A program made the position numbers and the translations under genes. A model generated the notes under the pieces. The model ran no database searches, was not told the origin of the DNA, and worked only from the letters and a program-made list of their open reading frames with translations. Source: an uncultured Bacteroidales bacterium (lineage in GTDB: Bacteria; Bacteroidota; Bacteroidia; Bacteroidales; JAEINX01). From it: 64,000 bases of DNA. The stretch spans positions 3,329 to 67,328 of the forward strand of contig CAYWXI010000025.1 in NCBI GenBank assembly GCA_964462015.1, given 5' to 3'. Positions 5,008 through 54,600 of this stretch are shown here, piece by piece; within the stretch, counting starts at the first letter, position 1; each line of letters opens with the position of its first letter.

Positions 5008-8000
5008 ATGAAAAAGTTTAACAAAAAAACATTGATTATCGGCATGCTGATATTTTTTGGAGTAGTAGCACTGGTAATTTCGACATTTGCACAAAATGGC
5101 TCAACAGCCAAAGATCTTGAACCACCTACAAATTTATTTGCAGTAGTTCAAAATGAAAATGATGTGCATTTATTCTGGGATGAACCTACAGCCGGAGATT
5201 CAACCTATCTGCACTGGGATAACGGTATAAATTATGATGCTATAGGAAATTTTATGGGACCATCTATATTTGAATATGCTACAAAATGGGAACCGGACCA
5301 AATTGCCAATTATGATGGCTGGAATATCATTTCCATGCGGTTTTATGTTGTTAATCCCCTTGCTACTGTAAAGCTTAAGGTATGGACGGGTATTGAGGGT
5401 ACCACAGAAATATACAGCCAGGATGTTACAAATTATAATCTTGGAGACTGGACAGAAATATTTTTTGATACACCTGTATCCATTGATGCAAGTGATTATC
5501 TATGGTTTGGGCTTTATGTGAATATGCCTGTAGCAGGTGCTTTTATGGGAGTAGATGAGGGACCTGCGGTTAATGGTTATGGTAATAATTACAGAATGCC
5601 TGGTGGAAATTGGTACCAGGATTTTGATGCAAACTGGAACCTTCAAATCCAGATTGATGGTAGTCAAAAGGAAACCAAAGATCTTTTAGGTTATAACATA
5701 TACAGGAATGATGTAACTGTGAACTCCGAATTGGTTACCAATACATCTTATGTTGATGAGAATGTTGGTAATGGAATCCATAGTTACTATGTAACAGCCG
5801 TGTATGATGACGGGGAATCAGATCCATCCAATACAGTACAAGTGGATATAAGTAATACTTATGTAATGGAACAGGATTCATTAGCACTGGTAGATCTTTA
5901 TAATAATTGCAATGGTCCTAATTGGACATGGAACGAAAACTGGTTGGTTACCCCTGTGGTAGAATGGCAAAATGTAACTGTTGTCGGTGACAGGGTAACG
6001 GATCTATTTATGTCTAATAATAATTTAACAGGTGATATTCCCGAATCCTTTGGAAACCTAACTGCCCTTGTTGACTTTCACGCTACCAGTAATAGTATTA
6101 CTTCAATTCCGGAAACTTTTGGAAACCTGGAGTCATTGGAAGTATGTTGGCTCGGATTTGATAATGAAATTACATCACTGCCCGAATCCTTTGGGAATTT
6201 GACAAACCTTGTTCAATTACATATTGGATTTCTTGACCTGGGCACCTTACCTGAATCATTTGGAAACCTTGTAAACCTCGAATGGCTTGCCCTTGGAGAT
6301 GCAGGTTTAAATAGCCTACCCGAAAGTTTCGGTAACCTGATATCTGTTGAAAGTTGTTTCCTTTGGGGAAATAACCTAACCTATCTGCCTGACAACTTTG
6401 GAGGCATGGAAAGTCTGAATTATTTATCACTGTATGAAAATCAACTTACCGGTTTGCCGGAAAGTTTTGGGGATCTTGATAACCTTCAGTTTTGTTTTCT
6501 TGATGTAAATCAGCTTGAATCCCTGCCAGAGAGTTTTGGATATCTTGCATCACTGGACTCTCTCTATTTGGACGCCAATAATTTAACTCAATTGCCTGAG
6601 TCTTTCGGAAATTTATCAGATTTAAATTATTTAAGCATTGCAGCTAATAACCTTACATCATTGCCTGCTTCATTCTCAAACCTGGCAACAATTCAGGAAA
6701 TTTATCTCAATAATAACCAGCTTATCGAGTTACCTGAGGATATTGGAAACCTGGGAAATACATTGATGGCTATGGGAATCAGCTATAATAATATTACTTC
6801 TTTGCCTGAATCAATTGATCAGCTGACAAATATTTATAGCTTTTTCGGTTCAAATAATCAGATTGGGAATTTGCCTGTGAATATTGGAAATATGGCTAAC
6901 CTGCATTACCTGGGTATGGAAAACAATAGCATTGAATCTATACCAGAATCATTTGGAAACTTGAGTGCTCTGGGTTATATCAGTTTGATGGATAATAACA
7001 TTAACGGACTTCCGGAATCTTTTGGTAATTTAAATGCGGATACAGTTTTACTTACAAATAATAATATTCCAGAATTGCCATCAGGTATGCTCAACAAATC
7101 ATTTGATTATTTATGGGTTGAGGATAATAATTTACAGTTTGGAAGCATTGAGCCACTTATGTATAATGTTGCATATCAATTCAATTATGATCCTCAGGCA
7201 ATGATAGGCAATGATACTATAATCGGAATACCCAATCATACAACACTATCATATACCATTGAGGTTACAGGAAGTAACAATATTTATAAATGGTATAAGG
7301 ATGGAACTATATTACCGGATCAAACTTCAAATACATTATACATCGAAAATGCTTCATATAATGACGAGGGTACATATGTATTAAAAGTCACAAATACAAT
7401 TGTTTCTGATCTGGAATTGGTAAGTTATGATGTAGAAATAGAGATTGTCGGTCAACAATTCGACTTAGAACCTGGATTCCAATTTATTTCTTCAGCAGTT
7501 GATCCAACTGATCCGAATATGACAGTTGTTATGGCTGACATATTAAATTCTAACCTTGATTTCGTTAGAAATTCAGCTGGTCAGATGTTGCGGAAAATTG
7601 GCCCTGTTTGGGTTAATGGTATCGGTAACTGGGTTGTTGAAGAAGGATATCTTGTCAAGATGTTTGCTGCTGATTCATTCACAATTTGTGGTACTTCTAT
7701 AGCTCCCGAAACCCCTATCGTTGTTGAATCAGGATTCCAGTTTGTAAGTTTTTTCCCGGCTGCTCCAATGGATGCACTTGTTGCATTTGAAACTATAGTT
7801 GGTGATGATCTTGATTTCATTAGAAATTCAGCCGGTCAGATGTTGCGGAAAATTGGCCCTGTTTGGGTTAATGGAATTGGCGACGCTTTGCCAGGTGAAG
7901 GTTACTTAGTTAAAATGTTTGCTCCGGGTCAAATTATCTATCCTGAGCCGGTTAAATTAAGTGGGAAAACTTCAATCATCCCATCTCATTTACTTTTCGA

Positions 8001-8565
8001 AGGTGGTAATGCTGCTGAACCTGTTTATACTATGTATATTAAAGGTTTAGAACCTGGTGATGAAGTAGCGGCTTATAACGGAGATGTTATTCTCGGTTCT
8101 ATGACTGTAACATCAGACAATGTTTACAATAACGCTCTTCCTGTATTCAGTCAGTTGAATAACGGACAAGGATATGTAGCCGGTGAAACTATTTCATTAA
8201 AAGTCTGGTCTAACGACAATGTTGTTGTTGCTGACTTTGAAATGGAATCAGTTTACAATTCTTACATATCTGATGTTTATCCGGGCAACGACGGTGAATT
8301 CAGTGTTGTTAATGTAACAAAAGATGCTATGCTTTCCGGTGAATTGCTTGTTTATCCAAATCCTGCCACTGATGTAATTAACATTACTTCTCCTTCTGAT
8401 ATTAGCAATGTTACTATATTTAATTATGTTGGACAGCCTGTTTACTCAAGCAATGTAAACAGTTCAAATGTTCAAATTAATTCAAACGATTTTAAAGCTG
8501 GTATTTATATTATAAGAATTCAAACTTGTAGGGGATTAGAAACCCAAAAGGTTACTATTAAGTAA
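5008..8565 (+). CDS. Secreted leucine-rich-repeat protein with FN3-like region, Ig-like domain, R1-R2 module pair, N-module and T9SS C-terminal sorting domain
   Basis: Signal peptide MKKFNKKTLIIGMLIFFGVVALVISTFAQ. About 19 repeats of a 23-aa LRR with core L-P-E-S-F-G-N-L. Ig-like segment YKWYKDGTILPDQTSNTLYIENASYNDEGTYVLKVTN. Two copies of DF[VI]RNSAGQMLRKIGPVWVNGIG. The end, VYPNPATDVINITS...AGIYIIRIQT...KVTIK, resembles Por_Secre_tail. Confidence 0.9.
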   Translation: MKKFNKKTLIIGMLIFFGVVALVISTFAQNGSTAKDLEPPTNLFAVVQNENDVHLFWDEPTAGDSTYLHWDNGINYDAIGNFMGPSIFEYATKWEPDQIANYDGWNIISMRFYVVNPLATVKLKVWTGIEGTTEIYSQDVTNYNLGDWTEIFFDTPVSIDASDYLWFGLYVNMPVAGAFMGVDEGPAVNGYGNNYRMPGGNWYQDFDANWNLQIQIDGSQKETKDLLGYNIYRNDVTVNSELVTNTSYVDENVGNGIHSYYVTAVYDDGESDPSNTVQVDISNTYVMEQDSLALVDLYNNCNGPNWTWNENWLVTPVVEWQNVTVVGDRVTDLFMSNNNLTGDIPESFGNLTALVDFHATSNSITSIPETFGNLESLEVCWLGFDNEITSLPESFGNLTNLVQLHIGFLDLGTLPESFGNLVNLEWLALGDAGLNSLPESFGNLISVESCFLWGNNLTYLPDNFGGMESLNYLSLYENQLTGLPESFGDLDNLQFCFLDVNQLESLPESFGYLASLDSLYLDANNLTQLPESFGNLSDLNYLSIAANNLTSLPASFSNLATIQEIYLNNNQLIELPEDIGNLGNTLMAMGISYNNITSLPESIDQLTNIYSFFGSNNQIGNLPVNIGNMANLHYLGMENNSIESIPESFGNLSALGYISLMDNNINGLPESFGNLNADTVLLTNNNIPELPSGMLNKSFDYLWVEDNNLQFGSIEPLMYNVAYQFNYDPQAMIGNDTIIGIPNHTTLSYTIEVTGSNNIYKWYKDGTILPDQTSNTLYIENASYNDEGTYVLKVTNTIVSDLELVSYDVEIEIVGQQFDLEPGFQFISSAVDPTDPNMTVVMADILNSNLDFVRNSAGQMLRKIGPVWVNGIGNWVVEEGYLVKMFAADSFTICGTSIAPETPIVVESGFQFVSFFPAAPMDALVAFETIVGDDLDFIRNSAGQMLRKIGPVWVNGIGDALPGEGYLVKMFAPGQIIYPEPVKLSGKTSIIPSHLLFEGGNAAEPVYTMYIKGLEPGDEVAAYNGDVILGSMTVTSDNVYNNALPVFSQLNNGQGYVAGETISLKVWSNDNVVVADFEMESVYNSYISDVYPGNDGEFSVVNVTKDAMLSGELLVYPNPATDVINITSPSDISNVTIFNYVGQPVYSSNVNSSNVQINSNDFKAGIYIIRIQTCRGLETQKVTIK

Positions 8566-12886: not shown

Positions 12887-12941
12887 AATTTTAAATTTCT
12901 TCAAAAAAACAAAAAAAAATGGCACCAACAATTCACATATG

Positions 12942-13774: not shown

Positions 13775-16700
13775 TTATTTAATAGTAACCTTTTTAATTA
13801 TAGTTGAATTGAGTGTATTTATTCTGAAAATATATATACCGGCTTGGTAATCCGAAGTATTAATTTTCATTTGAGCATCATTAACTTCAGTATTTAATAA
13901 TACTTGTCCTAAGAAGTTAAGAACCTGTACGTCATTAATTGTTTCGTTTGAAACAATATTAACATTATTGTTAGCAGGGTTAGGATATACTGAAATGTTA
14001 TCATTGGCAGTGTTTTCAAATCTGCTTCCTTTCGAAATATTAACAAAACTATATTCGTTATCTTCTGTTGGAAATACTTTATTGGTATAAGCTTCAAAAT
14101 CTGATTCAAAGTTAAAAGTTGAGACAATTTCCATTTGATTCTTGATATCCCAAACTTTTAATGAAATTTGATTTCCGGCATTAAAACCTTTACTATTAGT
14201 TAAGGTACTGAATATTGGCAAGCTGTTTTCAAATTTATTATCCGAACGGATAACTGTTGAACCAACCAATAAATCACCATCAAAAGCAGCAACTTCATCA
14301 CCAACTTCCAAACCTGAAATATACATTGTATAAATTGGATCAGCTGCGTTTCCACCATCGAATACAAAGTGTTCAATTACTTTAGGTCTAAGATTTGATA
14401 AAGTAGATTTTACGGGAGTATTATAAACTAATTGATCATCAGCATACATTTTAATAAGATAACCTTCTCCGGGTGTTGCATCACCAATTCCGTTCACCCA
14501 GTTAGGGCCAATTTTTCTTAACATTTCACCATTTGAATTTCTGATTAAATGTAAATTATCGCCCAGAATTTCATTAAAGGCATATAAAGCATCAATTGCT
14601 TCGGTTGGCAGATAACTTACAAATTGGAAGCCTGCAACTAAATCAATGGGTGTTGAAGCAGCAATTTCTACACCTGAGAACTCAACAGTTTCGCTACCAA
14701 ACATTTTAAATAAATATCCTTCGGTAACTACCCAATCACCTATTCCATTAACCCAATTCGGACCAATTTTTCTTAAAGTAGTTCCATCTGAATTTCTGAC
14801 AAAATCTAAGTTTTCATTTAATATATCTTCTAAAACAACAAGCATATCAGCATTTTCAATTTCGAAATGTGTTGAAACAAATTGATAACCTTCTGATAAG
14901 TCAATGTTTTGAGTTGCAGAAACAATTGAAATATTTTCATAAATTGTTTCAGTATTTAAGCTTGTTACAACCAATAAAACTTCGCCTGATAGAAAGTCAT
15001 GCTCAATATTTACATGTCCGTCAGCATCAGTTATTGCATTAAAGTATTCTCCGTTTTGTGATATGCACACCATAGCACCGGCAACCGGAGATCCGTTAGA
15101 AGTAACAATTAGATCATAAGGCATACCAACAGAAATTACCTCGTTAGATAATGCAAGCGGTGCAGGCTCAATAGTACGATGTTGAAGGGCAACATCACCA
15201 AAATATATCCATGTTTTAGCTGTTTCCCAATCGGAAGAACTACCCGATTCGGTTGTCATTAAAACCAAACCGTTAAATACAACTGCTCCGAGAGTATTTC
15301 TTTGTTCGCTTGTATTTATACCATTTTGTCCGGGATGAGCACTATAATCATAACCGCCAATTATAACATCATTAAAATAATCCTGCCCTCGCATTGGAGG
15401 AGTCCATGGTTGATTAATTGTTGCCATTAAAACTACAATAGCACCGCCATTTTCCTTTTTCAACCAAGCTTCAGCAAAACAATCTCCTGAACCCTGGAAT
15501 GCACCGTTAACACATGCAACAGAAAAAATAAAAGGAAGTTTACTGCCATTGGTTAAATTATTAACATGGCTATTACTAAAACCGGTAGAACCCCATGAAG
15601 TTTGGGAACCATGTCCACAGTAATTAATTGCACTAACTCCGTCATTAATTGCGTTAGTTACCATTGCGGCAGTACCTGAATAATCATAAGCAGTTGAGAA
15701 ATTATCATAAGTATAAGGATCCTGTTTATCGTTATAGATAACATCAATATGTTGATAATCCAGTTCATTGTCATCGCCAGGGCCTTGATTGGAAGCAACT
15801 CCTAATGCACTTGAATACCAATCATCACTATCAGGATTTTTCTCGTAATTAATTGTTTTATTAACCTGAATTGTTACATATCCGGGATTATTGGCCGAGA
15901 ATCTTCCAATACAAATATCAGCGTGGTTATCGCTTCCAACAACACAACCTAATTGAGGATCCATTGGTGATCCACCCATATTATCAGATTTAATATCGGC
16001 CCAATCACCAACTAACTGAACGTAGAGAAGATCATTATTTGCATTATAAGCATTTTGAATAAGGTTCTTTACATTTGTTCCGGTTGCAACAACTTCTTTT
16101 GTTACAGAGTAGCCTTTTTCCTTTTTCCATTCAATATAAGGTTCAATTGCATCTTCATCTCTTGCAGTTGTAATTACTAAGAGGTCGCCATATTCTCCTA
16201 CTGTAAGGTCATCTCTTGTTAGATTATAATTAATGAAAACAGAGTTGTAAATTGCATCCATTTCCCTGACAATTTCAGTTGCTTGTTTAGGTAGTGGATT
16301 AATAGCTTGTGTTTCGTTTTCAATTAATTCAACTGTCATGCTTTTATAAATCCTGAGAACATTTTTCACTGCATTATACCTGAAAGGAAATACATTAACA
16401 CTGGTTCCCCTTACATCTCTTAAAATGAAAGGAGTAGTGTTAGTAGCAAGATTCTGAGGATACCAGTTATCACGAAATGAGCTTGGACTTATAACATAAG
16501 GAATAGTTGAAGGATCCTGATCTCTGTAAATAACCCCTCTTGAAGGTAAAAGCGGATATTCTAACGAGAATTCCTCATATTCTCCTTCAATTACATTAAG
16601 GCTTACATTTTTATCAGCCGATAATTGTACTGTGGCACTAATCATGGGCAATTGTGCAAAACCTTTTAATTGAGTATAAACACTTCCATCAAATAATATT

Positions 16701-38537: not shown

Positions 38538-40364
38538 TTACTCTCTTATACAACGCACTGAATACCCGTATGTTTTATTATAACTTGCCTGGTAAAAATT
38601 TATATAATCATAAACTAAATTACCATACAAAGCGAAATTATCACTCGTTTCGCTTGATGACCAAAAACGACAACTTGCACTCAAATAATAGAAGTATCCG
38701 TTTGTAATATGTCCTCCGGGAAGGCCCGTAAAACCACTTGAATTTGTTGCTCCTGTATTTGGTGGATTCCAATGAATTGTTCCTTCTTCTTTCATTTTAC
38801 CACCTGCAACAGCATTTCCTCCAAGAAAATCGCCAAGTGTTGCCAAATCTTCATCCGTAGGAATATACCAACCAATTGGGCAGATTCCCTTTGATTCCGG
38901 CATTGTTGAATATTCCATCAATTCATCCCATTGATATAAACCTCCATACTCATCGCAGTTTGTCGGATCATCATCATAACAATATTTTTCAATTTCACCA
39001 TTATTTGACGGATCAATACTGCTGGCAATCATTATTCCGATATTTAAGTTTTCTGCCATCCAGCATTGTCCTCCTATCTGAACAGTATTGTAAACCTGTC
39101 CGTTACGAGAATCTGTAAATAGCTGACCACAAGGAAAAGTTGCAGGATATATTAAAACATCATTTGAATTCATTTTAATAAGATATGCCTGGCAGGGGAT
39201 AGAGTTTCCAATTCCGTTAACCCAGTTCGGCCCGATTTTTTGCAAAATATTTCCCTCAGAATTTCTGATATATAATAATTCATCTCCAATTATAGAAGCA
39301 AAAGCATCCATCGCATCCATTTCATAAACCGGTAAATAACTTACAAATTGATAACCTTCATGCAAATTAACAGGAGTTGTTGGAGAAATTATTTCACCAG
39401 TAATTGAAAATTGGCCGGTTCCGTTATATTTCACCAAATATCCTTCAGTTTCTATCCAATCACCAATTCCATTGATCCAGTTTGGCCCTATTTTTCTTAA
39501 CATAAAGCCATCCGAATTTCTGATAAAGAGTAAATCGTCTGTTAAAATTTCTGAGACCACCTCCATCATATCCGGATTTTCAAGAAAAATTTGTGAGGAA
39601 ATGAATTGATAACCGGTTTCAATATAATAAGTTTGAGTAAAAATAATCGGCTCTAAATCAAAATCAACAATAATAGTTTCTTCTGAAATTACCTGCTGTG
39701 CAAACTTAGTTTGTGGATAAAATCTATTTGCATTTACAGTAATATTATAAGTTATGGGTTGTAAGCCTTCAATTAAATATGTTCCATCGCTTGAAGTAAC
39801 TGTTTGATAAATTGCACCGTCTATTTTCACTTCTGCTCCAACAATTAACTCATTTGATAAAGCACTTCTAACCGTACCTGAGATTGCACCTGCCGGCAAA
39901 ATAGGAAAATTCAATTGAATCACACTGTATTCACCATCATCAGGAGGAAATATATTTTGTGTCCAGGCATCTCCATAGGGGTTGGAATATATCACTTCAA
40001 ATATTATATATTCAATTTGCTCGCTTTCATCCCAGCCTTTAAAAGATACCGGATTTCCCGGTGTCCATCCTGGCATTGAAATAAGATCACCCCAAGCAGA
40101 TAAATCGTTTTCAAATTGATTATCCGGAGTACAAACCTGATCTAAGGTAAAAACGCCTACCATAGTTTCTCCATCAAATATTGCAATTTCATCTCCTGAT
40201 TCCATATCAATATTATTTATGGTTGCTCCACCTATATATAATGTCCATAGAGGAGCACGACCACCTAAGAAATTAAAATGGCCTGTTTTCACTTGCGGCA
40301 AAGCATCAATTGATGATAAAAGAAGAATTATCATCATAAACGAGATTGTGTAAAGATTTTTCAT
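38538..40364 (-). CDS. Secreted FISUMP lectin-like protein, paralog 1 (signal - N-module - CarboxypepD_reg-like - R1-R2 - FISUMP)
   Basis: Start moved to MKNLYTISFMMIILLLSSIDALPQ by homology with paralogs 2-3. GHFNFLGG...GDEIAIFDGETMVG; LLFIRNSDGFMLRKIGPNWINGIGDW; LLYIRNSEGNILQKIGPNWVNGIGNS; [26 protein letters not shown]...GLYQWDE...FWSSSE...GYSVRCIRE. Confidence 0.85.
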   Translation of the reverse strand: MKNLYTISFMMIILLLSSIDALPQVKTGHFNFLGGRAPLWTLYIGGATINNIDMESGDEIAIFDGETMVGVFTLDQVCTPDNQFENDLSAWGDLISMPGWTPGNPVSFKGWDESEQIEYIIFEVIYSNPYGDAWTQNIFPPDDGEYSVIQLNFPILPAGAISGTVRSALSNELIVGAEVKIDGAIYQTVTSSDGTYLIEGLQPITYNITVNANRFYPQTKFAQQVISEETIIVDFDLEPIIFTQTYYIETGYQFISSQIFLENPDMMEVVSEILTDDLLFIRNSDGFMLRKIGPNWINGIGDWIETEGYLVKYNGTGQFSITGEIISPTTPVNLHEGYQFVSYLPVYEMDAMDAFASIIGDELLYIRNSEGNILQKIGPNWVNGIGNSIPCQAYLIKMNSNDVLIYPATFPCGQLFTDSRNGQVYNTVQIGGQCWMAENLNIGIMIASSIDPSNNGEIEKYCYDDDPTNCDEYGGLYQWDELMEYSTMPESKGICPIGWYIPTDEDLATLGDFLGGNAVAGGKMKEEGTIHWNPPNTGATNSSGFTGLPGGHITNGYFYYLSASCRFWSSSETSDNFALYGNLVYDYINFYQASYNKTYGYSVRCIRE

Positions 40365-40380
40365 AATAATATGTTTTTGA

Positions 40381-40431
40381 GAAATTGGAATAAGAAATTC
40401 AGGAGGGTCCAAATTTCTAATTCCCAATTTC
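40381..40431 (-). promoter_or_regulatory. Imperfect ~20-bp-arm palindrome in the leader of paralog 1
   Basis: gaaattggaataagaaatt - caggagggtcc - aaatttctaattcccaatttc, starting 17 nt upstream of the start codon. Confidence 0.5.
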
Positions 40432-40442
40432 ATTCTATAACC

Positions 40443-45541: not shown

Positions 45542-47368
45542 TCAATAACTTATACATCGTACTGAATATCCATATATTTTATTATTACTGGCTTGGGGAA
45601 AATTTGTATTCGCGGAAAATAAGCTACTATACAAAGCAAGTACATTACTTGTTTCACTTGATGACCAAAAACGACAACTGGAACCTAAATAATAGAAATT
45701 TCCATAAAAGTTAACATATCCCCCAGGAAGAGCAGTATAACCACTTGAATTTGTTGCACCGGTATTTGGTGGATCCCAATGTACTGTTCCTTCTTCTTTC
45801 ATTTTACCACCTGCAATTTCATCTCCTCCAAGAAAATCGCTAAGAGTTGTCAAATCATCTTCGCCCGGAACGTGCCAACCGGTAGGGCAGATACCCTGTG
45901 AAAACTGCATTGTTGAATACTCCATCATTTCATCCCATTGATACAAACCGCCATATTCATCGCAGTTTGCAGAATTATCATCATAGCAATATTTTTCAAT
46001 CTCACCATTATTTGCCTGGTTAATACCGCCGGCAATCATTGTCCCGATATTTAAATTTTCTGCCATCCAACATTGTTCTCCAATTTGAACGGTATTATAA
46101 ACCTGTCCGTTACGAGAGTCTGTAAATGGCTGGCCGCAAGGATAGTTTGCGGGATATATTAAAACATCATCGGAATACATTTTAATAAGATATGCCTGGC
46201 CGGGGATAGAATTTCCAATTCCATTAACCCAATTAAGCCCGATTTTTTGTAATATTTCACCTTCCGAATTTCTGATAAATAATAGATTTTCGCCAATTAT
46301 TGAAGCAAAGGCATCCATGGCATCCATTTCATAAACCGGCAAATAACTAACAAACTGATAACCTTCATGCAAATTAACTGGAGTTGTTGGAGAAATTATT
46401 TCACCACTAATTGAAAACTGCCCAATTCCGTTATATTTAACCAAATAACCTTCAGTTTCTATCCAATCGCCAATTCCATTGACCCAGTAAGGCCCTATTT
46501 TTCTTAACATATCACCATCCGAATTTCTGATAAATAACAAATCATCTGTTAAAATTTCTGAGACCACCTCAATCATATCCGGATTTTCAAGTATAATTTG
46601 AGATGAAATAAATTGAAAGCCGGTTTCCAAATTATAGGTTTGATTAAATATGATAGGCTCTAAATTAAAATCAACTAAAATAGTTTCTTCTGAAATTACT
46701 TGCTGAGTAAACTTTGTTTGAGGATAAAATCTACTTGCATTTGCAGTAATATCATACGTTATGGGTTGAAGCCCTTCAAATAAATATGTCCCATTGCTTG
46801 ATGTAACAGTCTGATAAGAAGTGCCTTCTATTGTCACAACCGCACCCTCAATTACTTCATTTGATAAAGCACTTTTAACTGTTCCTACAATAGCACCTTC
46901 TCCTATATAAAAATTAAACTGAACCATGCTATATTGACCATCACCGGGAGGGAATACATTTCCTGTCCACGCGCCACCATAAGGATCAGAATAAATCACC
47001 TCAAATATTGCACATTCTACCTGCTCGCTTTCATCCCAGCATTTGAAAGACACCGGATTTCCCGGTGTATACCCAATTCCATACAAAAGAGTACCATGAG
47101 CTGTCATTAAGTTTTCAAATTGGTTATCGGGAGTACAAACCTGGGTTAAAGTAAAAGCTCCGACCATAATTTCTCCATCGAATATTGCAATTTCATCGCC
47201 GGACTCCAGATCAACATTATTTAATGTCGCTTCACCAATATATAATGCCCAATAAGGGAAATTACCACCTTCGAAATTAAAATGTCCTGTTTTCACTTGT
47301 GGAAAAGCTTCAATTGATGATAAAAGTAGAATTATCATCATTAACGAAATTGTGTAAAGTGTTTTCAT
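45542..47368 (-). CDS. Secreted FISUMP lectin-like protein, paralog 2
   Basis: Same architecture as paralog 1: MKTLYTISLMMIILLLSSIEAFPQ; GHFNFEGGNFPYWALYIGEATLNNVDLESGDEIAIFDG; R1-R2; [26 protein letters not shown]...GYSVRCISY. Confidence 0.88.
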   Translation of the reverse strand: MKTLYTISLMMIILLLSSIEAFPQVKTGHFNFEGGNFPYWALYIGEATLNNVDLESGDEIAIFDGEIMVGAFTLTQVCTPDNQFENLMTAHGTLLYGIGYTPGNPVSFKCWDESEQVECAIFEVIYSDPYGGAWTGNVFPPGDGQYSMVQFNFYIGEGAIVGTVKSALSNEVIEGAVVTIEGTSYQTVTSSNGTYLFEGLQPITYDITANASRFYPQTKFTQQVISEETILVDFNLEPIIFNQTYNLETGFQFISSQIILENPDMIEVVSEILTDDLLFIRNSDGDMLRKIGPYWVNGIGDWIETEGYLVKYNGIGQFSISGEIISPTTPVNLHEGYQFVSYLPVYEMDAMDAFASIIGENLLFIRNSEGEILQKIGLNWVNGIGNSIPGQAYLIKMYSDDVLIYPANYPCGQPFTDSRNGQVYNTVQIGEQCWMAENLNIGTMIAGGINQANNGEIEKYCYDDNSANCDEYGGLYQWDEMMEYSTMQFSQGICPTGWHVPGEDDLTTLSDFLGGDEIAGGKMKEEGTVHWDPPNTGATNSSGYTALPGGYVNFYGNFYYLGSSCRFWSSSETSNVLALYSSLFSANTNFPQASNNKIYGYSVRCISY

Positions 47369-47431: not shown

Positions 47432-49261
47432 TTACTCCCGTATGCAACGCACAGAATATCCGTGGGTCTTATTATAACAGCCCAGGTAATAAAAGTATGA
47501 ACTATAATAAGATAAGCTGCCATACATTGCATAATCATCTATGGTTTCGCTTGATGACCAAAAACGGAAACCGGCACCCAAATTTGAATATCCTGGGGGG
47601 ATAATATGTCCTCCCGGAAGAGCAGTAAAACCACTGGAATTTGTCGCTCCCAAATTTGGCGGATCCCAGTGTACTGTTCCGGTTTCTTTCATTTTTCCAC
47701 CCGCAATGTCTTCTCCTCCAAGAAAATCGCTAAGAGTTGCCATATTTTCAATGCGGGGAACATACCAACCAATGGGGCAGATCCCAGGTGAACACGGACT
47801 TATTGAGTACTCCATCATTTCATCCCATTGATATAAACCGCCATATTCATCACAATTTGCAGGATCATCATCATAACAATATTTTTCAATTTCACCATTA
47901 TTTGTCGGATCAAAACTGCTATTGATCATTGTTCCGATATTTAAATTTTCTGCCATCCAGCATTGTTCTCCTATTTGAACCGTATTGTAAACCTGCCCGT
48001 CACGGGAATCGGTAAATGCCTGGCCACAAGGAAAACTTGCGGGATATATTAAAACATCATCGGAATTCATTTTTATAAGATATGACTGGCCGGGAATAGA
48101 ATTTCCAATTCCATTAACCCAGTTTGGGCCAATTTTTTGTAACATTTCGCCTCCAGAATTTCTGATAAACAAAAGATTTTCGCCAATTATAGAAGTAAAA
48201 GCATCAATAGCATCCATTTCATAAACCGGCAAATAACTAACAAACTGAAAACCTGTTGTTAAATTAATTGGTGTTAATGGATTAATTATTTCACCACTAA
48301 TTGAAAATTCTCCGCTTCCGTTATATTTAATCAAATAACCCTCAGTTTCTATCCAATCGCCAATTCCATTTACCCAGTTTGGGCCAATTTTTCTTAACAT
48401 AAAGCCATCTGAATTTCTGATAAAAAGTAAATCATCAGTTAAAATTTCTGAGACAACATCCATCATATCCGGATTTTCAAGTATAATTTGTGATGAAACA
48501 AATTGAAAACCGGTTTCAATATTGTAAGTTTGAGTATAAATAATTGGCTCTAATTCAAAATCTACAATAATGACTTCATCTGAAATCACTTGTTGTTCAA
48601 ATATTGTTTGAGGATGAAACCTGCTTGCATTCGCAGTAATATTATGAGTTATGGGCATAACATCTGCAATTGAATATTTTCCATTGCACGATGTAAGCGT
48701 CTGTAAAGATGCGCCTTCAACCTTAACTATTGCACCCTCAATTACTTCATTTGACAAAGCACTTTTAACTGTTCCTCCAATAGTGCCCCCTATATAAAAA
48801 TTCAAATAAATCAAACAATATACACCATCATCAGTTGGGAATACATTTTCTGAACAACCTGTACCATAAGGATCAAAAAAACTAAACTCAAATAATGTAG
48901 ATTCCACTTGCTCACTTTCATCCCAGCATTTGAACAAAACCGGGTTTCCTGCAGTATAACCGGGCCCAGAAAGAAGCACACTAAAAGCTGTTAAATCGTT
49001 ATCAAAGGCGTTATCGGGAGTACAAACCTGATCTAAAGTAAAAGTTCCAACTATAGTTTCTCCATCGAAAACTGCAATTTCGTCTCCTGATTCCAGATCA
49101 ATACTATTTAATGTAGCTTCCATTATATATAGTGTCCATATAGGGGAACTGGGATCACCTCCTTCGAAATTAAAATGGCCTGTTTTCACTTGTGGAAAAG
49201 CTTCAAATGATGATAAAAGTAGAATTATCATCATTAACGAGATTTTGTAAAGTGTTTTCAT
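47432..49261 (-). CDS. Secreted FISUMP lectin-like protein, paralog 3
   Basis: MKTLYKISLMMIILLLSSFEAFPQ; same module order; 63-bp gap to paralog 2. Confidence 0.88.
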   Translation of the reverse strand: MKTLYKISLMMIILLLSSFEAFPQVKTGHFNFEGGDPSSPIWTLYIMEATLNSIDLESGDEIAVFDGETIVGTFTLDQVCTPDNAFDNDLTAFSVLLSGPGYTAGNPVLFKCWDESEQVESTLFEFSFFDPYGTGCSENVFPTDDGVYCLIYLNFYIGGTIGGTVKSALSNEVIEGAIVKVEGASLQTLTSCNGKYSIADVMPITHNITANASRFHPQTIFEQQVISDEVIIVDFELEPIIYTQTYNIETGFQFVSSQIILENPDMMDVVSEILTDDLLFIRNSDGFMLRKIGPNWVNGIGDWIETEGYLIKYNGSGEFSISGEIINPLTPINLTTGFQFVSYLPVYEMDAIDAFTSIIGENLLFIRNSGGEMLQKIGPNWVNGIGNSIPGQSYLIKMNSDDVLIYPASFPCGQAFTDSRDGQVYNTVQIGEQCWMAENLNIGTMINSSFDPTNNGEIEKYCYDDDPANCDEYGGLYQWDEMMEYSISPCSPGICPIGWYVPRIENMATLSDFLGGEDIAGGKMKETGTVHWDPPNLGATNSSGFTALPGGHIIPPGYSNLGAGFRFWSSSETIDDYAMYGSLSYYSSYFYYLGCYNKTHGYSVRCIRE

Positions 49262-49387: not shown

Positions 49388-51184
49388 TTACTCCCGAATG
49401 CATCGCACAGAATATCCATGTGTCTTTTCAAAACCGGCCTGGTAGTAAAAACTTGAATTATAATAAGTTAAAGCACCATACAAAGCATAAATACTACTGC
49501 TTGATGACCAAAAACGGAAACCGGCACCCAAATTGAAATATTCTGATGAAATAATATGCCCTCCTGGAAGGCCGGTAAAACCACTTGAATTTGTTGCACC
49601 GGTATTTGGTGGATTCCAGTGTACTGTTCCGGCCTCCTTCATTTTACCACCTGCAATGTCTTCTCCTCCAAGAAAATCGCATAAGGTTGCCATATCCTCA
49701 TTACTGGGAATGTACCAACCAATGGGGCAGATTCCAGGTGAATACTGGATTGCAGAATACTCCATCATTTCATCCCATTGATATAAACCACCATATTCAT
49801 CACAATTTGCAGGATCATCATCATAACAATATTTTTCAATTTCACCATTATTTGTTGGCTCAATACTGCTGTTGATCATTGTTCCGATATTTAAGTTTTC
49901 TGCCATCCAGCATTGTTCTCCTATTTGTACGGTATTGTAAATCTGTCCATCACGTGAGTCAGTAAATGGCTGGCCACAAGGAAAGCTTGCGGGGTATATT
50001 AAAACATCATCGGAATTCGTTTTAATAAGATATGCTTGTCCGGGAACAGAATTCCCTATATTATTAACCCAGACAGGACCTATTTTCTGCAACATATTCC
50101 CTTCTGAATCCCTGATATAAACAAGATTATCACCAATAATAGAGGCAAAGGCCTCCATTGCATCCATCTCATAAAGTGGCAAATAGCTTATAAACTGAAA
50201 GCCTGTAGATAATGATATCGGTGTTGTTGGAGACATTAATTCTCCTGAAATTGTAAACTGCCCTGTACCGGAGTACTTCACAAGATATCCTTCGGTTTCA
50301 ATCCAGTCACCGATACCATTAACCCAATATGGCCCAATTTTCCTAAGCATCATTCCATCAGCATTCCTGATATAATGTAAATCATCGGTTAAAATATCTG
50401 AGATAACTTCCTCCATATCCGGATTCTCAAGAAATATTTGTGATGAAATAAATTGATAACCGGAATTAATGGTGTAGCTCTGAGAATGTATAACAGGATT
50501 TAATGAAAAATCAACAAAAATAGTATCGTCAGAAATTGCCTGATTATCGAAACTTACTTGAGGATAAAACCCGTAAGCACTTGCTCTGATGTTATAATTA
50601 AAGGGCATTACAGGTTCAAACAGGTATTTTCCTTCACTTGTAGTTATTGTTTGTAGAAATGTACCTTCAATTGACACTATTGCACCTTCAATTTTTTTGT
50701 CTGATAAGGAGCTTCTAACCGTACCGCTTATTGTGCCACCAAAATAAAAGTCCAATTGAATAATACAATACGGTTCATCTTGTGGAAATATATTATCCTC
50801 ACAGGGGCTTGTACCGTATGGATCAAAAGTGGTCATTACAAATAATGAAACTTCTCTTTGTAAACTTTCGTCCCAGCATTTGAAAAGCATTGGATTTCCG
50901 GGAGTATAACCAGGGCCGTTTAGCAGATCCCTGAATGCATATAATTCATTATCAAAGCAGTTATCCATAGTGCAAACCTGAGACAATGTCATTGCTCCAA
51001 CCATAATATCACCATCAAATATAGCAATTTCATCTCCGGCTTCCAGGTCGATATTTTCAAGCCTTGCACCGCCAATATATAAGGCTGTTATATTTGAAGT
51101 CGGATCGCCTCCTTCAAAAATAAAATGTCCTTCTCTTGTTTGTGTTAAAGTTTCAATTGACGATAAAAGTAGAATCATCATCAT
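49388..51184 (-). CDS. Secreted FISUMP lectin-like protein, paralog 4 (ancestral start codon apparently lost)
   Basis: Same module order. The in-frame upstream codons read KKTYYTISI before MMMILLLSS, i.e. homologous to MKTLYTISL of the other paralogs, but with AAG where they have ATG. Confidence 0.8.
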   Translation of the reverse strand: MMMILLLSSIETLTQTREGHFIFEGGDPTSNITALYIGGARLENIDLEAGDEIAIFDGDIMVGAMTLSQVCTMDNCFDNELYAFRDLLNGPGYTPGNPMLFKCWDESLQREVSLFVMTTFDPYGTSPCEDNIFPQDEPYCIIQLDFYFGGTISGTVRSSLSDKKIEGAIVSIEGTFLQTITTSEGKYLFEPVMPFNYNIRASAYGFYPQVSFDNQAISDDTIFVDFSLNPVIHSQSYTINSGYQFISSQIFLENPDMEEVISDILTDDLHYIRNADGMMLRKIGPYWVNGIGDWIETEGYLVKYSGTGQFTISGELMSPTTPISLSTGFQFISYLPLYEMDAMEAFASIIGDNLVYIRDSEGNMLQKIGPVWVNNIGNSVPGQAYLIKTNSDDVLIYPASFPCGQPFTDSRDGQIYNTVQIGEQCWMAENLNIGTMINSSIEPTNNGEIEKYCYDDDPANCDEYGGLYQWDEMMEYSAIQYSPGICPIGWYIPSNEDMATLCDFLGGEDIAGGKMKEAGTVHWNPPNTGATNSSGFTGLPGGHIISSEYFNLGAGFRFWSSSSSIYALYGALTYYNSSFYYQAGFEKTHGYSVRCIRE

Positions 51185-51622: not shown

Positions 51623-54600
51623 ATGAAAAACTTTACATACTATCTCTTTTACTTTATATTATTCTCCGGAATAAATTCACAAGCCCAACATTTTGATTTT
51701 CCGGGAGGAAATCCTGAAGCACCTTTTTACACAATGTATTTTGCAGGAGCGAGTTTGAACAACATTAATTTGTCAGAAAACGATGAAATTGCTGTTTTCG
51801 ATGGAGAAACTATGGTGGGTGTGTTCACTCTCACGCAGGAATGTGCCCCCGAAAACGCCTTTGCTAACGTATTAATAGCATGGCAATTATTAAATAATGG
51901 AAACCAGGGATATTCCCCGGGCAATAATGTAAATTTTAAATGTTGGAAAGCAGATGATGAAACAGAAGTCGGGGAATTTGAAATAATTTATACTGATCCT
52001 TATGGAGGGGCATGGACTGAAAACACTTTTCCTGATGGAGAAAATAAATACAGTATTCCGATAATTAATTTCTACACACCAAAAGGTTCGATTGCAGGAA
52101 TAATCTCCGATACAATCACAGGTGAACCGATTGCAAACGCAAGTATTTCAATTGAAAACAAACCTTATTCTACGACAAGCAATTCGCAAGGTGAATATTT
52201 TCTAAATGAAATCCCCATCGGGGAATACAATTTAATTACTGAAGCTACCGGTTATTTCACAAAAACGAAAAATGATCTAATTGTCATACCTGATGAAACA
52301 ACAGTTTGTGATTTTGAATTACATATTCTTACACCTGTTTTAGTTGAAATAATCCAGGGAAATGAAGAACTAACAATAGTATGGGAATCAATTCAACAAA
52401 GCAGTGACGGACATTTTAATTTTGAAGGAGGAAATTCAAATTTTCCAACATGGACAATATATTTATCATCAGCATTTATTGATGAAGTCGATCTTGAACC
52501 AAACGATGAAATCGGGATTTTCGACGGAGATATTCTGGTTGGGGCTTTTACACTCACAGAAGTCTTAACACCACAGAATTTTTTATCCAATCCTTTGATT
52601 GCTTATAGTGAGCTTATTTCAGGCCAAGGCTATACTCCGGGAAATCCTATTTCATTAAAATGCTGGGACGACAGCGAAGGATTAGAATATTCAAAATTTG
52701 AAATTAGCTTTTCCGATCCTTACGGTGGTGCATGGATTGAGGCATTTTTTCCACCCGGCGTAAATAAATACAGTATCGTTGAAATTGACTTTGCTTCATT
52801 CTTTTTTAATGTTTATTACGACAATGGTGAATTAGTAGCTGGAGATGTTGTTGGCCCGTCATTTACCGACACAGATTTAGACCCTGAAATTGAATACTGC
52901 TATTATGTCAAACAGATTTTAAGCAATGGCGAGGAATCCTTGGCTTCAAATGTTATGTGCGATATTCCTTTGCCTCCGATGGCACCAATTATTACTGATG
53001 CAATTCCCGGAATTGAGGAGATTACAATATATTGGGAACCTTTGGAGGGAATATTTAATGTTTATTACGAAGATGGAGCTTTAATAGCTGAAAATATCGA
53101 AGTTTCTTTTTTCACAGATACAGCCCTGATTGTTGGCCAGGAATATTGTTATTTTGTAACTCAGACACTTGAAGGCGGAGAAGAATCTCCCCCATCAAAT
53201 ATTTACTGTGAAGAACCACTCTCCCCCCCTGCCCCGTACCTCATCAAAGCTCAAGCCGGTGTTGAGAAAGTTACATTAACATGGAGGCCTGTTTTTTTTG
53301 AAAACCCCGGAGGCGATTATTTTGATTTTCCGGGAGGCGACACCAGCAATAATTACTGGAATATTTTCATCAGCGGTGCATACTTAGATGGAGTTAGTTT
53401 GAGGCCAGATGATGAAATTGCTATTTTCGATAATGATTCGATTGTTGGTGTTTATCATCTGCAACAGGTCTGTACACCCGATAATATGTTTGAAAATAAT
53501 TTATATGCTTTTAGCGTACTTTACAATGGAAATCAGGGATATACACCCGGCGACAGCCTGAAATTCAAATGCTGGAAAAACGGAGGAGATGAAGGAATTG
53601 AGTCGGTTGATTTTGAATATACTTTCTTTGATCCTTTTGGGGATGCATGGATGGGAGAAGTATTTCCCGAAGGAAGCGGTAACTATAGTTGCATTGAATT
53701 GAACTTTACTTCTTATTATTTTAATATTTATTATGATGACGGTAGTTTGGTTGCAGAAAATATTACCGAAACTGATTATGTCGATTCAAATTTAATTCCG
53801 CTTCAAGAATATTGTTATTATATAACACAAATTTTTCCTGACCTGAGTGAATCAATCCCATCAAATACAAAATGTGGCAGTCCGTTGTTGCAACCTCATT
53901 TCCCGTTTTACGGTGGGTATTTTATCGATTTTATCTGGACTATGTATATTTCATCGGCTACTCTAAATGGGGTTGATCTGCAACCTGGTGATGCGTTAGC
54001 AATTACAAATAACGATACTATTGTCGGAGTTTTTAATTTAGACCAGGTGTGTACTCCGGAAAATATTTTTGAAAATGATTTTATAATCTGGAAAACGATT
54101 TTTCTGGAAGATTTCACAATGGTTCCCGGCTATACAATTGGGAATAAATATTATATAAAATGCTGGGATGAAGATGAAGAAATTGAAGCAAATTGTTTTG
54201 AAGTAGTCTTTAGCAATCCTTATGGTGATGCTTTTTGCGGAGATGTTTTCCCCGATGGCGACGCACAGTACAGTCTGGTGGAGCTTCACTTCCAGACTCC
54301 ATCTACTCAAAATATTTTGTTTAATTCGGGTTATCAGATTTCATCTTCTTTTATAGCACCCGATGAAACAAATATGCTCTCGGTTTTAAGCCAGAATTTA
54401 AATGATAATCTATATTTTGTTAAAGATGTATCAAATTATTCGGTTCAAAAAGTAGGACCTTTTTGGATAAATAATATTGGCGATTGGATAAATTCCGATG
54501 CCTATCTTTTTAATATGTTTACTGAAGACAACCTCAGCATTGAAGGATGCGAAATTTGCAACGACACACCAATTCCTTTAGATGCGGGATATCAATTATG

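What the first reader, a model, noticed from the sequence alone, without database searches (positions are those of the whole stretch)
7474..8562. Conserved C-terminal cassette R1-R2 / Cys-less N-module / T9SS CTD on three cargo proteins
Three proteins end with the same four-part cassette in the same order: R1, R2, then a ~115-aa module, then a T9SS C-terminal sorting domain.
- Locations: LRR protein (7474..8562), C25 peptidase (about 13778..14890, minus strand) and the 1293-aa protein (about 54329..55501).
- The ~115-aa module reads [HL]-F-x-F-[ED]-G-G-N-A-A-[ED]-P-[VI]-Y-T-M-Y-I...GDEVAA[YF][ND]GD...ISLKVW in the first two proteins. The giant's fifth copy is more divergent (IHFDNVQGNALNPVWTIYF...GDEVALFDGE...LIFKLWD).
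- The CTD-proximal N-module copies all lack the two cysteines (QVCTPDN ... FKCWD) that are conserved in the N-terminal-type copies of the lectins and in copies 1-4 of the giant.

So the cassette appears to move as a unit. The region just before a T9SS CTD ends up next to the anionic-LPS anchor, so this cassette would sit at the cell-surface-proximal end of each cargo.
Basis: seen in the sequence. Interest (0 to 1): 0.65.

Follow-up and report, generated by a model that had tools for sequence, protein, structure and literature searches.

The report
Shared undescribed tail on T9SS cargo
Three unrelated secreted proteins of an uncultured marine Bacteroidales bacterium end in the same four-domain tail, two of whose domain types are in no database searched here; related genomes attach this tail to dozens of different surface proteins, so it is probably a common stalk or docking unit for the cell-surface coat.

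Summary
The LRR protein, the C25 peptidase and the 1293-aa protein all end R1 (78 aa), R2 (76 aa), short N (~105 aa), type A T9SS CTD.

- **Undescribed domains.** R and N match no Pfam model, even at E<=10, and no PDB sequence. A confident model of N (pLDDT 95.8) has no structural neighbour.
- **Widespread.** Nearly all of the 258 related proteins examined keep the same order and almost fixed spacing on unrelated heads, including C10, C25, subtilase, CARDB, GEVED, PKD, LamG and Kelch. Among the 80 best loci retrieved, one MAG holds 42 and another 30.
- **A unit with a sharp edge.** In the 60 best of 116 pairs with unrelated heads, homology begins 3-30 aa before R1, or at an upstream long N, and runs to the stop codon.
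- **A distinct N type.** CTD-proximal N copies form their own Cys-less type; the tree needs 4 label changes against about 60 in shuffles.
- **Constraint.** R1-R2 is as constrained as the heads (dN/dS 0.09 vs 0.10) and more than the CTD (0.21).
- **Divisible.** The cassette splits into R1R2 and N-CTD. Fib_succ_major is inserted between them in 26 proteins, and four window lectins carry R1R2 without a CTD.

Function is inferred only: an export-and-anchor base plus a partner-binding stalk.

The parts
7468..7701 (+). R1 module of the LRR protein (residues 821-898 of the 5008-8565 gene)
   Evidence: HMM match 9e-37. AF2 pLDDT is about 95. No Pfam hit at E<=10.
7726..7953 (+). R2 module of the LRR protein (residues 907-982)
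   Evidence: HMM match 1.6e-35. The 8-aa gap to R1 is the gap seen in 248 of 259 family members.
7984..8322 (+). Short, Cys-less, CTD-proximal N module of the LRR protein (residues 993-1105)
   Evidence: HMM match 1.8e-34. AF2 model of the domain alone has pLDDT 95.8 and pTM 0.88. No PDB structural neighbour better than E 0.1.
8332..8562 (+). Type A T9SS C-terminal sorting domain of the LRR protein (residues 1109-1185)
   Evidence: PF18962 scores 44.5 bits against a cutoff of 27. TIGR04183 also matches. In the Foldseek search of the whole 370-aa cassette model, the match of about 76 columns to the RemA CTD (8gl6_D, TMt 0.84) corresponds to this domain.
14411..14896 (-). R1 (residues 660-737) and R2 (746-821) of the C25 peptidase (gene 13775-16873)
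   Evidence: HMM matches 1.6e-37 and 1.1e-36.
14033..14374 (-). Short CTD-proximal N module of the C25 peptidase (residues 834-947)
   Evidence: HMM match 7e-38. It falls in a clade made up only of proximal copies.
13778..14008 (-). Type A T9SS CTD of the C25 peptidase (residues 956-1032)
   Evidence: PF18962 scores 49.2 bits.
54323..54808 (+). R1 (residues 901-978) and R2 (987-1062) of the 1293-aa protein (gene 51623-55504)
   Evidence: HMM matches 7.6e-34 and 7.2e-31.
54845..55201 (+). Fifth, CTD-proximal N module of the 1293-aa protein (residues 1075-1193)
   Evidence: HMM match 4.5e-40. It groups with other proteins' proximal N copies (SH-aLRT 97), not with N1-N4 of its own protein.
55226..55501 (+). 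Type A T9SS CTD of the 1293-aa protein (residues 1202-1293)
   Evidence: PF18962 scores 28.7 bits against a cutoff of 27.
51686..54265 (+). Four long (distal-type) N modules N1-N4 of the 1293-aa protein (residues 22-141, 263-381, 565-686, 758-881)
   Evidence: HMM matches 1e-50 to 1e-52. All four fall in the distal clade.
46145..46627 (-). R1R2 pair of lectin 45542-47368. Architecture: signal peptide, long N, CarboxypepD_reg, R1, R2, Fib_succ_major, with no CTD.
48032..48517 (-). R1R2 pair of lectin 47432-49261 (same architecture, no CTD)
49985..50467 (-). R1R2 pair of lectin 49388-51184 (same architecture, no CTD)
39135..39620 (-). R1R2 pair of lectin 38538-40433 (same architecture, no CTD)

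Best explanation
**What it is.** The cassette is a reusable C-terminal tail for type IX secretion (T9SS) cargo, seen so far only in uncultured Bacteroidales MAGs, where a source names the organism. It is built from two separable sub-units.

**Sub-unit 1: short N plus type A CTD, the export-and-anchor base.**
- Shown: the CTD is a bona fide type A sorting domain.
- Shown: the N copy next to it is a distinct, shortened, Cys-less subtype that almost always occupies that position.
- Inferred: the cargo folds in the periplasm and the CTD takes it through the T9SS translocon.
- Inferred: a PorU-type sortase cuts in the 12-17-residue N-CTD linker and joins the new C-terminus to a surface lipopolysaccharide.
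- Inferred: short N stays as the membrane-proximal domain. It acts like the Ig-like domain next to the CTD of gingipains and HBP35, by stabilising the junction.

**Sub-unit 2: R1-R2, a rigid pair of about 78-aa beta-sandwich domains.** It is joined to N by a flexible linker of about 10-12 residues.
- Shown: it is the most conserved part of the tail. It is as constrained as the catalytic or binding heads, and more constrained than the secretion signal.
- Inferred: it lifts the head off the surface. Its conserved face (LDFVRNSxGQMLRKIGPNWVNGIGDW...EGYLVKM, present in both R1 and R2) binds a partner common to all the cargo. The partner could be a surface glycan or neighbouring tails. This would organise dozens of different heads into one coat.

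**History.** The tail has been joined to many unrelated heads by recombination just upstream of R1.
For: **Order and spacing.**
- Of the 258 proteins examined, 230 end R-R-N-CTD by my module HMMs.
- Another 23 end in R-R-N without a detected CTD. Several of these keep a trailing stretch of about 90 residues, which I read as a divergent CTD; that reading was not tested.
- The R-R gap is 8 aa in 248 of 259 cases. R2-N gaps are mostly 10-12 aa and N-CTD gaps 12-17 aa.

**Heads.** They are unrelated: C10, C25, subtilase, esterase, CARDB, GEVED, PKD, LamG, Kelch, BNR, beta-helix and LRR.
- 335 of 631 cassette pairs at >=70% identity have heads with no BLAST hit to each other.
- In the 60 best of the 116 pairs with >=75% identical cassettes and unrelated heads, homology begins 3-30 aa before R1, or at an upstream long N. 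It ends at the C-terminus.

**Abundance.**
- The profile search finds 5095 cluster representatives at E<=1e-3 and 424 at E<=1e-30.
- 42 loci come from MAG15 and 30 from a second MAG.

**Short N is its own type**.

**Structure.**
- In the cassette model, R1-linker-R2 has pLDDT about 95. The R2-N linker (168-182) and N-CTD linker (291-296) fall below 50.
- The CTD matches the RemA CTD at TMt 0.84.
- N alone has pLDDT 95.8. Its only recurring weak hits are gingipain IgSF domains: 4rbm (prob 0.85), 6i9a, 4ief and 1cvr.

**Constraint.**
- Mean pairwise identity is R1 0.59, R2 0.62, N 0.51 and CTD 0.35.
- In 14 orthologue pairs the median dN/dS is 0.104 for heads, 0.086 for R1R2, 0.177 for N and 0.208 for CTD.
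- Cassettes pair as orthologues between MAGs and do not cluster by genome, so the paralogues are old and individually maintained.

**Literature.**
- In RgpB, disrupting the contact between the CTD and its preceding domain blocks secretion (PMC11285876).
- Ig-like domains of cargo are needed for stability during T9SS secretion (Sato et al. 2018, cited in PMC10202324).
Against: - No experiment or binding partner is known, so the stalk-and-docking role rests on conservation and position alone.
- R1R2 is not always next to the anchor. In 26 proteins a Fib_succ_major domain of 160-250 aa lies between R2 and N.
- In the window's four lectins R1R2 occurs with no CTD at all.
- Other CTD cargo in the same window lack the cassette (11426-12931 and 59412-60836). 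The tail is therefore not needed for secretion as such.
- The resemblance of N to gingipain IgSF is weak (TMq 0.33-0.37, E>=0.18).
- No separate model of R could be made, so the R fold was not classified.
Confidence: 0.6

Rival explanations
1. R1R2 and/or N are substrate-targeting modules that bind carbohydrate or another ligand, as CBMs do. On this view they aim many different enzymes and adhesins at a common external substrate, such as marine particles, algal or prey cell walls. They would not organise proteins on the cell's own surface.
For: - The bacterium comes from marine and seawater metagenomes.
- R1R2 is combined with Fib_succ_major lectin-like domains, with or without a CTD.
- N occurs in tandem arrays of up to six copies, as adhesin or CBM repeats do.
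- The conserved R block is rich in Trp, Tyr, Asn and Arg.
- Purifying selection on R1R2 is strong.
Against: - There is no sequence or profile similarity to any Pfam or CBM family or PDB chain, and no structural neighbour for N.
- R1R2 is always exactly one pair at a fixed spacing, whereas CBMs vary in copy number and position.
- The short N subtype is tied to the CTD-adjacent position, which a substrate-binding role does not explain.
Confidence: 0.2
2. The whole cassette is an extended secretion and quality-control signal. On this view R1-R2-N is needed for recognition by, or stability during passage through, a lineage-specific T9SS shuttle or attachment complex, and it has no role after export.
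For: - Cassette CTDs form their own close subfamily. My HMM built from the three window cassette CTDs scores those same three CTDs at 1e-33 to 1e-39, which is partly circular. It gives 4e-8 for the CTD of the peroxidase cargo and does not detect the CTD of the 501-aa protein.
- The identities of the modules co-vary. Spearman correlation is 0.74 for R1 against R2, about 0.6 for N against R, and 0.32-0.44 for CTD against the rest.
- CTD-adjacent domains are known to matter for secretion (PMC11285876; Sato 2018, cited in PMC10202324).
Against: - Cargo without the cassette are encoded in the same window.
- R1R2 occurs in proteins without a CTD and can be separated from N-CTD by a whole lectin domain.
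- A pure transit signal would not be expected to be more conserved than the CTD itself.
Confidence: 0.15
3. The shared tail results from recent duplication, genome-wide gene conversion or chimeric metagenome assembly. On this view it is not a functional unit.
For: - P0009 (C10 head) and P0015 (GEVED head) share a cassette that is 99.5% identical. However, the contig with P0015 ends 18 nt after the stop codon, so a chimeric join is possible.
- A 71-nt stretch is 94% identical between R1 and R2 of the LRR gene, which shows local conversion.
Against: - The three window cassettes are only 35-51% identical.
- Cassettes lie inside long contigs and pair as orthologues between two MAG species. They do not cluster by genome: the MAG15 label needs 28 changes against 26 in shuffles.
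- dN/dS of 0.09-0.21 shows long-term purifying selection on each copy.
Confidence: 0.03

Closest known systems
Type A CTD cargo of the Bacteroidota type IX secretion system (PF18962 / TIGR04183), for example RgpB, HBP35 and RemA
   Same: The last 75-90 residues match PF18962 above its threshold. The model superposes on the RemA CTD (TMt 0.84). All three proteins start with a hydrophobic, signal-peptide-like N-terminus.
   Different: Known cargo share only the CTD. Here about 290 further residues upstream (R1, R2, short N) are shared as well. R1R2 is conserved more strongly than the CTD.
Ig-like (IgSF) domain next to the CTD in gingipains RgpB/Kgp and in HBP35. It is required for cargo stability during secretion (Sato et al. 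2018; PMC11285876).
   Same: It is a beta-sandwich of about 100 residues in the same position, directly before the CTD. It is the only recurring, though weak, structural hit for short N.
   Different: There is no sequence similarity, and the structural match is below significance (TMq 0.33-0.37). Short N belongs to a family that also has long copies at N-termini and in tandem arrays.
Cleaved-adhesin / haemagglutinin (K/HA) domains shared by RgpA, Kgp and HagA of Porphyromonas gingivalis
   Same: These are non-catalytic modules shared between a C25 peptidase and other surface proteins of one organism. They are thought to hold surface complexes together.
   Different: There is no Pfam match to Cleaved_Adhesin. 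The number and order of modules is fixed, not variable. The tail is carried by dozens of unrelated heads, not three proteins.
Dockerin modules of cellulosomal enzymes
   Same: The logic is the same: one conserved non-catalytic module on many unrelated enzymes of a genome, kept alike by a common partner.
   Different: There is no homology, since dockerins are calcium-binding helical repeats. No cohesin-like partner has been identified. Attachment here would be through T9SS and LPS.
Fib_succ_major (PF09603 / TIGR02145) paralogous family proteins
   Same: The window's four lectins and 26 related proteins combine R1R2 with this domain.
   Different: Fib_succ_major is not part of the cassette. It is an alternative C-terminal head, or an insert between R2 and N.

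Membership tests
T9SS type A CTD cargo (PF18962/TIGR04183) | C-terminal domain of about 75 aa matching PF18962 above the gathering score | tested here: met
   Scores are 44.5, 49.2 and 28.7 bits against a cutoff of 27. TIGR04183 scores 45.5, 44.2 and 26.7 against a cutoff of 23.
T9SS type A CTD cargo (PF18962/TIGR04183) | CTD has the seven-strand Ig-like sandwich fold of solved CTDs | tested here: met
   Foldseek matches the RemA CTD 8gl6_D (TMt 0.84, rmsd 1.6) and the mirolase CTD 8qb1 (TMt 0.69).
T9SS type A CTD cargo (PF18962/TIGR04183) | N-terminal Sec signal peptide | tested here: inconclusive
   Hydrophobic N-termini can be read directly in the translations. No signal-peptide predictor was available.
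T9SS type A CTD cargo (PF18962/TIGR04183) | Genome encodes the T9SS machinery (SprA/Sov, PorV, PorU, PorK-N) | not testable with these tools
T9SS type A CTD cargo (PF18962/TIGR04183) | CTD is cleaved and the cargo is attached to anionic LPS | not testable with these tools
   This needs proteomics or biochemistry.
CTD-adjacent IgSF domain of gingipains/HBP35 | Beta-sandwich domain immediately upstream of the CTD | tested here: met
   The short N model has seven strands and pLDDT 95.8. N-CTD gaps are mostly 12-17 aa.
CTD-adjacent IgSF domain of gingipains/HBP35 | Significant structural or sequence similarity to the gingipain IgSF | tested here: not met
   The best IgSF hit is 4rbm (E 0.18, TMq 0.37). 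There is no sequence hit.
Cleaved adhesin / HA domains (Pfam Cleaved_Adhesin) | Pfam match to the family | tested here: not met
   No Pfam family is reported in the R1-R2-N regions at E<=10, apart from two chance-level hits.
Carbohydrate-binding modules / lectins | Match to a described CBM or lectin family, or to a solved CBM structure | tested here: not met
   No match in Pfam, in PDB profile searches or in Foldseek with N. R alone was not modelled.
Dockerin-cohesin systems | Dockerin or cohesin Pfam domains, and a scaffold protein with matching receptor modules | tested here: not met
   No such Pfam hits in the cassette or in the window proteins. A partner search in the genome was not possible.

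The most novel reading that the evidence does not exclude
R1R2 is a docking module of a surface-assembly system, dependent on T9SS, that has not been described before.
- Dozens of LPS-anchored cargo would display the same rigid R1R2 pair.
- That pair would bind other R1R2 pairs or long N modules.
- Proteins lacking a CTD, such as the window's four R1R2-bearing lectins, could then be recruited to, or travel out with, anchored cargo.
- The result would be a mixed enzyme-and-lectin coat. It would be a functional counterpart of the cellulosome or of gingipain-adhesin complexes, built from two new domain families.
Probability: 0.15. Interest if true: 0.8.

Novelty: new variant of a known kind. Interest (0 to 1): 0.55.

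Why it matters
T9SS cargo are thought to share only the CTD of about 80 residues.

**What is different here.**
- In this lineage a large set of cargo shares a further 290 residues, made of two domain families that appear in neither Pfam nor the PDB. One MAG contributes 42 such loci.
- The shared part is conserved more strongly than the secretion signal. This implies a common function after or during export that current T9SS models do not include.

**Practical consequences.**
- Two new domain families could be defined. The profile search found 5095 cluster representatives at E<=1e-3.
- Annotation of marine Bacteroidales surface proteomes would improve.
- It gives a concrete construct set for testing what lies between the LPS anchor and the working head of T9SS-displayed proteins: CTD, N-CTD and R1R2-N-CTD. 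That knowledge is also useful for surface-display engineering.

Tried and rejected

**Searches that found nothing.**
- Pfam at E<=10 on R1-R2-N and on a long N gave only chance hits.
- PDB sequence-profile searches with R and N gave only spurious hits.
- Profile-profile comparison of R against N shows they are unrelated.
- Foldseek with the four-domain model returned CTD matches and generic tandem-Ig matches, which say nothing about R.
- Three literature searches found no description of the cassette.

**Limits.**
It remains untested.

**Hypotheses rejected or left open.**
- Genome-wide concerted evolution of the cassettes is rejected, because cassettes pair by orthologue and not by genome.
- An obligatory disulfide in long N is rejected, because the two Cys columns are both occupied in only 60 of 154 copies.
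- The 99.5% identical cassette on P0009 and P0015 is left ambiguous as evidence for recent swapping, because one contig ends at the cassette.


Full report
**1. What is in the window**

Three genes end in the same four-part C-terminal region:
- the LRR protein (5008-8565, plus strand, 1185 aa);
- the C25 peptidase with its propeptide (13775-16873, minus strand, 1032 aa);
- a 1293-aa protein (51623-55504, plus strand).

BLASTP of the last 370 residues of the LRR protein finds the C25 tail at 51% identity (E 1e-130) and the giant's tail at 35% (E 2e-64). It also finds the R1-R2 part alone, at 51-54% identity, in four paralogous proteins of about 600 aa.

Module boundaries from phmmer and HMMs are regular: R1 78 aa, R2 about 76 aa, N about 105 aa, CTD about 77-92 aa. 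A six-frame scan finds exactly 14 R copies and 11 N copies in the window, all in these seven proteins. PF18962 passes its gathering threshold in all three tails.

The four "lectins" have a different architecture: signal peptide, long N, CarboxypepD_reg, R1, R2, Fib_succ_major, with no CTD.

Two other CTD-bearing proteins in the window have no cassette: 11426-12931 and the di-haem peroxidase at 59412-60836.

**2.

The coordinates and motifs are right. The three CTD-proximal N copies lack both cysteines and share two deletions.

The claim that all other copies keep both cysteines is not exact. Giant N2 lacks the first and Lec631 lacks the second.

Across 407 N copies from 258 related proteins:
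- no proximal copy has both Cys (0 of 253), and the first position is deleted in 239 of 253;
- distal copies have Cys at either position in about two thirds of cases, but at both in only 60 of 154.

An obligatory disulfide is therefore unlikely.

**3. R and N are undescribed domains**
- Pfam gives nothing for R1-R2-N or for a long N, even at E<=10.
- Profile searches of all PDB sequences give only chance hits.
- R and N are unrelated to each other.

The AlphaFold2 model of the whole LRR tail was built with a 72-sequence alignment and has mean pLDDT 83.5.
- R1-linker-R2 is modelled at about 95 throughout, which suggests a rigid pair.
- The R2-N linker (residues 168-182 of the tail) and the N-CTD linker (291-296) fall below 50.

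Foldseek against the PDB finds real relatives only for the CTD: RemA CTD at TMt 0.84, plus the mirolase and RgpB CTDs. Otherwise it finds generic tandem-Ig proteins.

Short N modelled alone is very confident (pLDDT 95.8, pTM 0.88) but has no neighbour better than E 0.1. The only recurring weak hits are the IgSF domains of gingipains, which occupy the same place before the CTD (4rbm, 6i9a, 4ief, 1cvr).

**4. The cassette elsewhere**

A word-indexed search with the tail returned 656 proteins. The best 119 cover 97-100% of the tail at 47-94% identity, apart from five that match only the R1-R2 part (44% coverage). Their heads are unrelated: C10 and C25 peptidases, subtilase, esterase, CARDB, GEVED, PKD, LamG, Kelch, BNR, beta-helix and LRR.

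An exhaustive profile search of 1.84 billion cluster representatives found 5095 at E<=1e-3 and 424 at E<=1e-30. In most of the best 150, the whole R1-R2-N stretch lies about 90 residues from the C-terminus.

Among the 258 proteins examined, 230 end R-R-N-CTD by my module HMMs. Another 23 end R-R-N without a detected CTD. Several of these keep a trailing stretch of about 90 residues, which I take to be a divergent CTD; this was not tested.

Spacing is nearly fixed:
- the R-R gap is 8 aa in 248 of 259 cases;
- R2-N gaps are mostly 10-12 aa;
- N-CTD gaps are mostly 12-17 aa.

Where a source names the organism, it is an uncultured Bacteroidales MAG. Of the best 80 genomic loci, 42 come from one MAG (MAG15, JAEINX01) and 30 from another. 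The window itself is held by marine and seawater metagenomes.

**5. Does it move as a unit?**

In a tree of 181 N copies:
- the proximal/distal label needs only 4 changes, against a shuffled mean of 59.6 (0 of 500 shuffles as low);
- the giant's N5 sits in an all-proximal clade (SH-aLRT 97), away from its own N1-N4.

Evidence from the heads:
- Of 631 cassette pairs at >=70% identity, 335 have heads with no detectable similarity.
- In the 60 best of the 116 pairs with >=75% identical cassettes and unrelated heads, the homology begins 3-30 residues before R1, or about 140 residues before it when both carry a long N there. It runs to the last residue.
- Module identities co-vary. Spearman correlation is 0.74 for R1 against R2, about 0.6 for N against R, and 0.32-0.44 for CTD against the rest.

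The order R1-R2-N-CTD with a sharp upstream edge is thus a real evolutionary unit.

It is not indivisible:
- 26 proteins carry an insert of 160-250 aa between R2 and short N. Where precomputed Pfam domains are listed, this insert is Fib_succ_major.
- R1R2 pairs from those proteins are scattered among the ordinary ones, needing at least 13 changes on the tree.
- The window's lectins stop after Fib_succ_major.
- In several orthologue pairs N is much more diverged than its flanks. In L042/L065, for example, N is 61% identical against 87-88%.

The tail is therefore best read as two sub-units, R1R2 and N-CTD.

**6. Age and constraint**

Cassettes do not cluster by genome. Copies from MAG15 and the second MAG interleave as orthologue pairs. 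The paralogues are therefore old, and genome-wide concerted evolution is excluded.

Local conversion does occur. A 71-nt stretch is 94% identical between R1 and R2 of the LRR gene.

A 99.5% identical cassette sits on a C10 head (P0009) and a GEVED head (P0015), with the break at the last strand of the upstream N. One of the two contigs ends 18 nt after the stop codon, so a chimeric assembly cannot be ruled out.

Measures of constraint:

| Part | Mean pairwise identity, 220 cassettes | Median dN/dS, 14 orthologue pairs |
|---|---|---|
| Head | not measured | 0.104 |
| R1 / R2 | 0.59 / 0.62 | 0.086 (R1R2 together) |
| N | 0.51 | 0.177 |
| CTD | 0.35 | 0.208 |

The most conserved block, LDFVRNSxGQMLRKIGPNWVNGIGDW...EGYLVKM, occurs in both R1 and R2. 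R1R2 is therefore not a loose spacer.

**7. How it most likely works**

Shown:
- a genuine type A CTD;
- a specialised CTD-adjacent N subtype;
- a rigid, highly constrained R1R2 pair;
- flexible linkers between the sub-units;
- reuse on dozens of heads.

Inferred from established T9SS biology in P. gingivalis:
- The CTD drives export.
- A PorU-type sortase cuts in the N-CTD linker and couples the cargo to surface LPS.
- Short N then acts as the membrane-proximal base. This is comparable to the Ig-like domains that stabilise cargo during secretion (Sato et al. 2018, cited in PMC10202324) and whose contact with the CTD is required in RgpB (PMC11285876).

Inferred from conservation: R1R2 binds a partner common to all these cargo, either a surface glycan or neighbouring tails, and so organises the coat.

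Rivals:
- Substrate-targeting, CBM-like modules.
- An extended secretion signal. This is weakened by cargo without the cassette in the same window, and by R1R2 in CTD-less lectins.
- An artefact or simple duplication, which is rejected.

**8. Comparison and novelty**

The proteins are members of the type A CTD cargo class, on the tests that were possible. The R1-R2-N part belongs to no described family. Tests for membership of the gingipain IgSF, cleaved-adhesin, CBM and dockerin families were not met. The resemblance to these is functional or positional only.

Three literature searches found no description of the cassette. Earlier notes of this scan had seen the same tail in other genomes and reached a similar reading. 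They are not independent evidence.

I rate it a new variant of a known kind: T9SS cargo with an undescribed, conserved pre-CTD tail built from two new domain families.

**9. Limits**
There is no census for the window's own genome, no check of T9SS genes and no partner search.
- R was not modelled on its own.
- All functional statements are inferences.

Noticed in passing
window 7555-7625 and 7810-7880: A 71-nt stretch is 94% identical between R1 and R2 of the LRR gene. It encodes the identical peptide DLDF[VI]RNSAGQMLRKIGPVWVNGIG in both. This indicates gene conversion between the two repeats within the gene.
   Followed up: partly
window 38538-40433, 45542-47368, 47432-49261, 49388-51184 (all minus strand): Four paralogous lectin-like proteins have the architecture signal peptide, long N, CarboxypepD_reg, R1, R2, Fib_succ_major. 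They stop there, with no CTD. In other genomes the same architecture continues with short N and a CTD (P0044, P0060, P0074, P0088; P0104 has the short N, but no CTD was detected). How the CTD-less versions would reach the surface is unexplained.
   Followed up: partly
window 59412-60836 (minus strand) and 11426-12931 (minus strand): Two further T9SS CTD proteins lack the cassette. One is a di-haem cytochrome c peroxidase (CCP_MauG) fused directly to a CTD, which is an unusual cargo.
   Followed up: no
window 52799-52969, 53051-53218, 53714-53884 (giant protein residues ~393-449, 477-532, 698-754): Between the N modules there are three copies of a further unit of about 56 aa, FNVYY[DE]DG.L[VI]A...YCYY[VI].Q...S..S...C. 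A similar YNIYRND...YYVTAVY unit sits near the N-terminus of the LRR protein, where Pfam gives a weak RGI_lyase beta-sheet hit.
   Followed up: no
window 7939-7983 (LRR residues ~978-992) and the same position in relatives: The R2-N linker is predicted to be disordered, yet it carries a conserved motif, YP..AKSSGK. Tyr is conserved in >=95% of 205 non-redundant cassettes and Lys in about 80%. It could be a processing or modification site.
   Followed up: no
L079 2171-3673 and L080 4469-5977: A C10 peptidase (P0009) and a GEVED/CARDB protein (P0015) from different samples share a cassette that is 99.5% identical. The identity starts in the last strand of the upstream long N. The gene downstream of P0009 resembles the head of P0015 (77.6% DNA identity). 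L080 ends 18 nt after the stop codon, so the cause is either recent conversion between neighbouring genes or a chimeric assembly.
   Followed up: partly
loci L042/L065, L017/L008, L016/L004: In these orthologue pairs between two MAGs, short N is only 61-66% identical. In the first two pairs both flanks are 86-88% identical; in L016/L004 R1R2 is 92% and the CTD 75%. This suggests that the N module alone has been replaced within a cassette.
   Followed up: no
proteins P0099, P0102, P0120, P0044, P0088, P0157; window giant and lectins: Long N is often the first domain of the mature protein (residues about 27-145, right after the signal peptide). Several cargo therefore carry an N module at both ends.
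   Followed up: no
window 57165-58112 (minus strand): A histidine-specific SAM methyltransferase (Methyltransf_33, EgtD-like) lies next to a rhodanese-domain protein and the CTD-tagged peroxidase.
   Followed up: no
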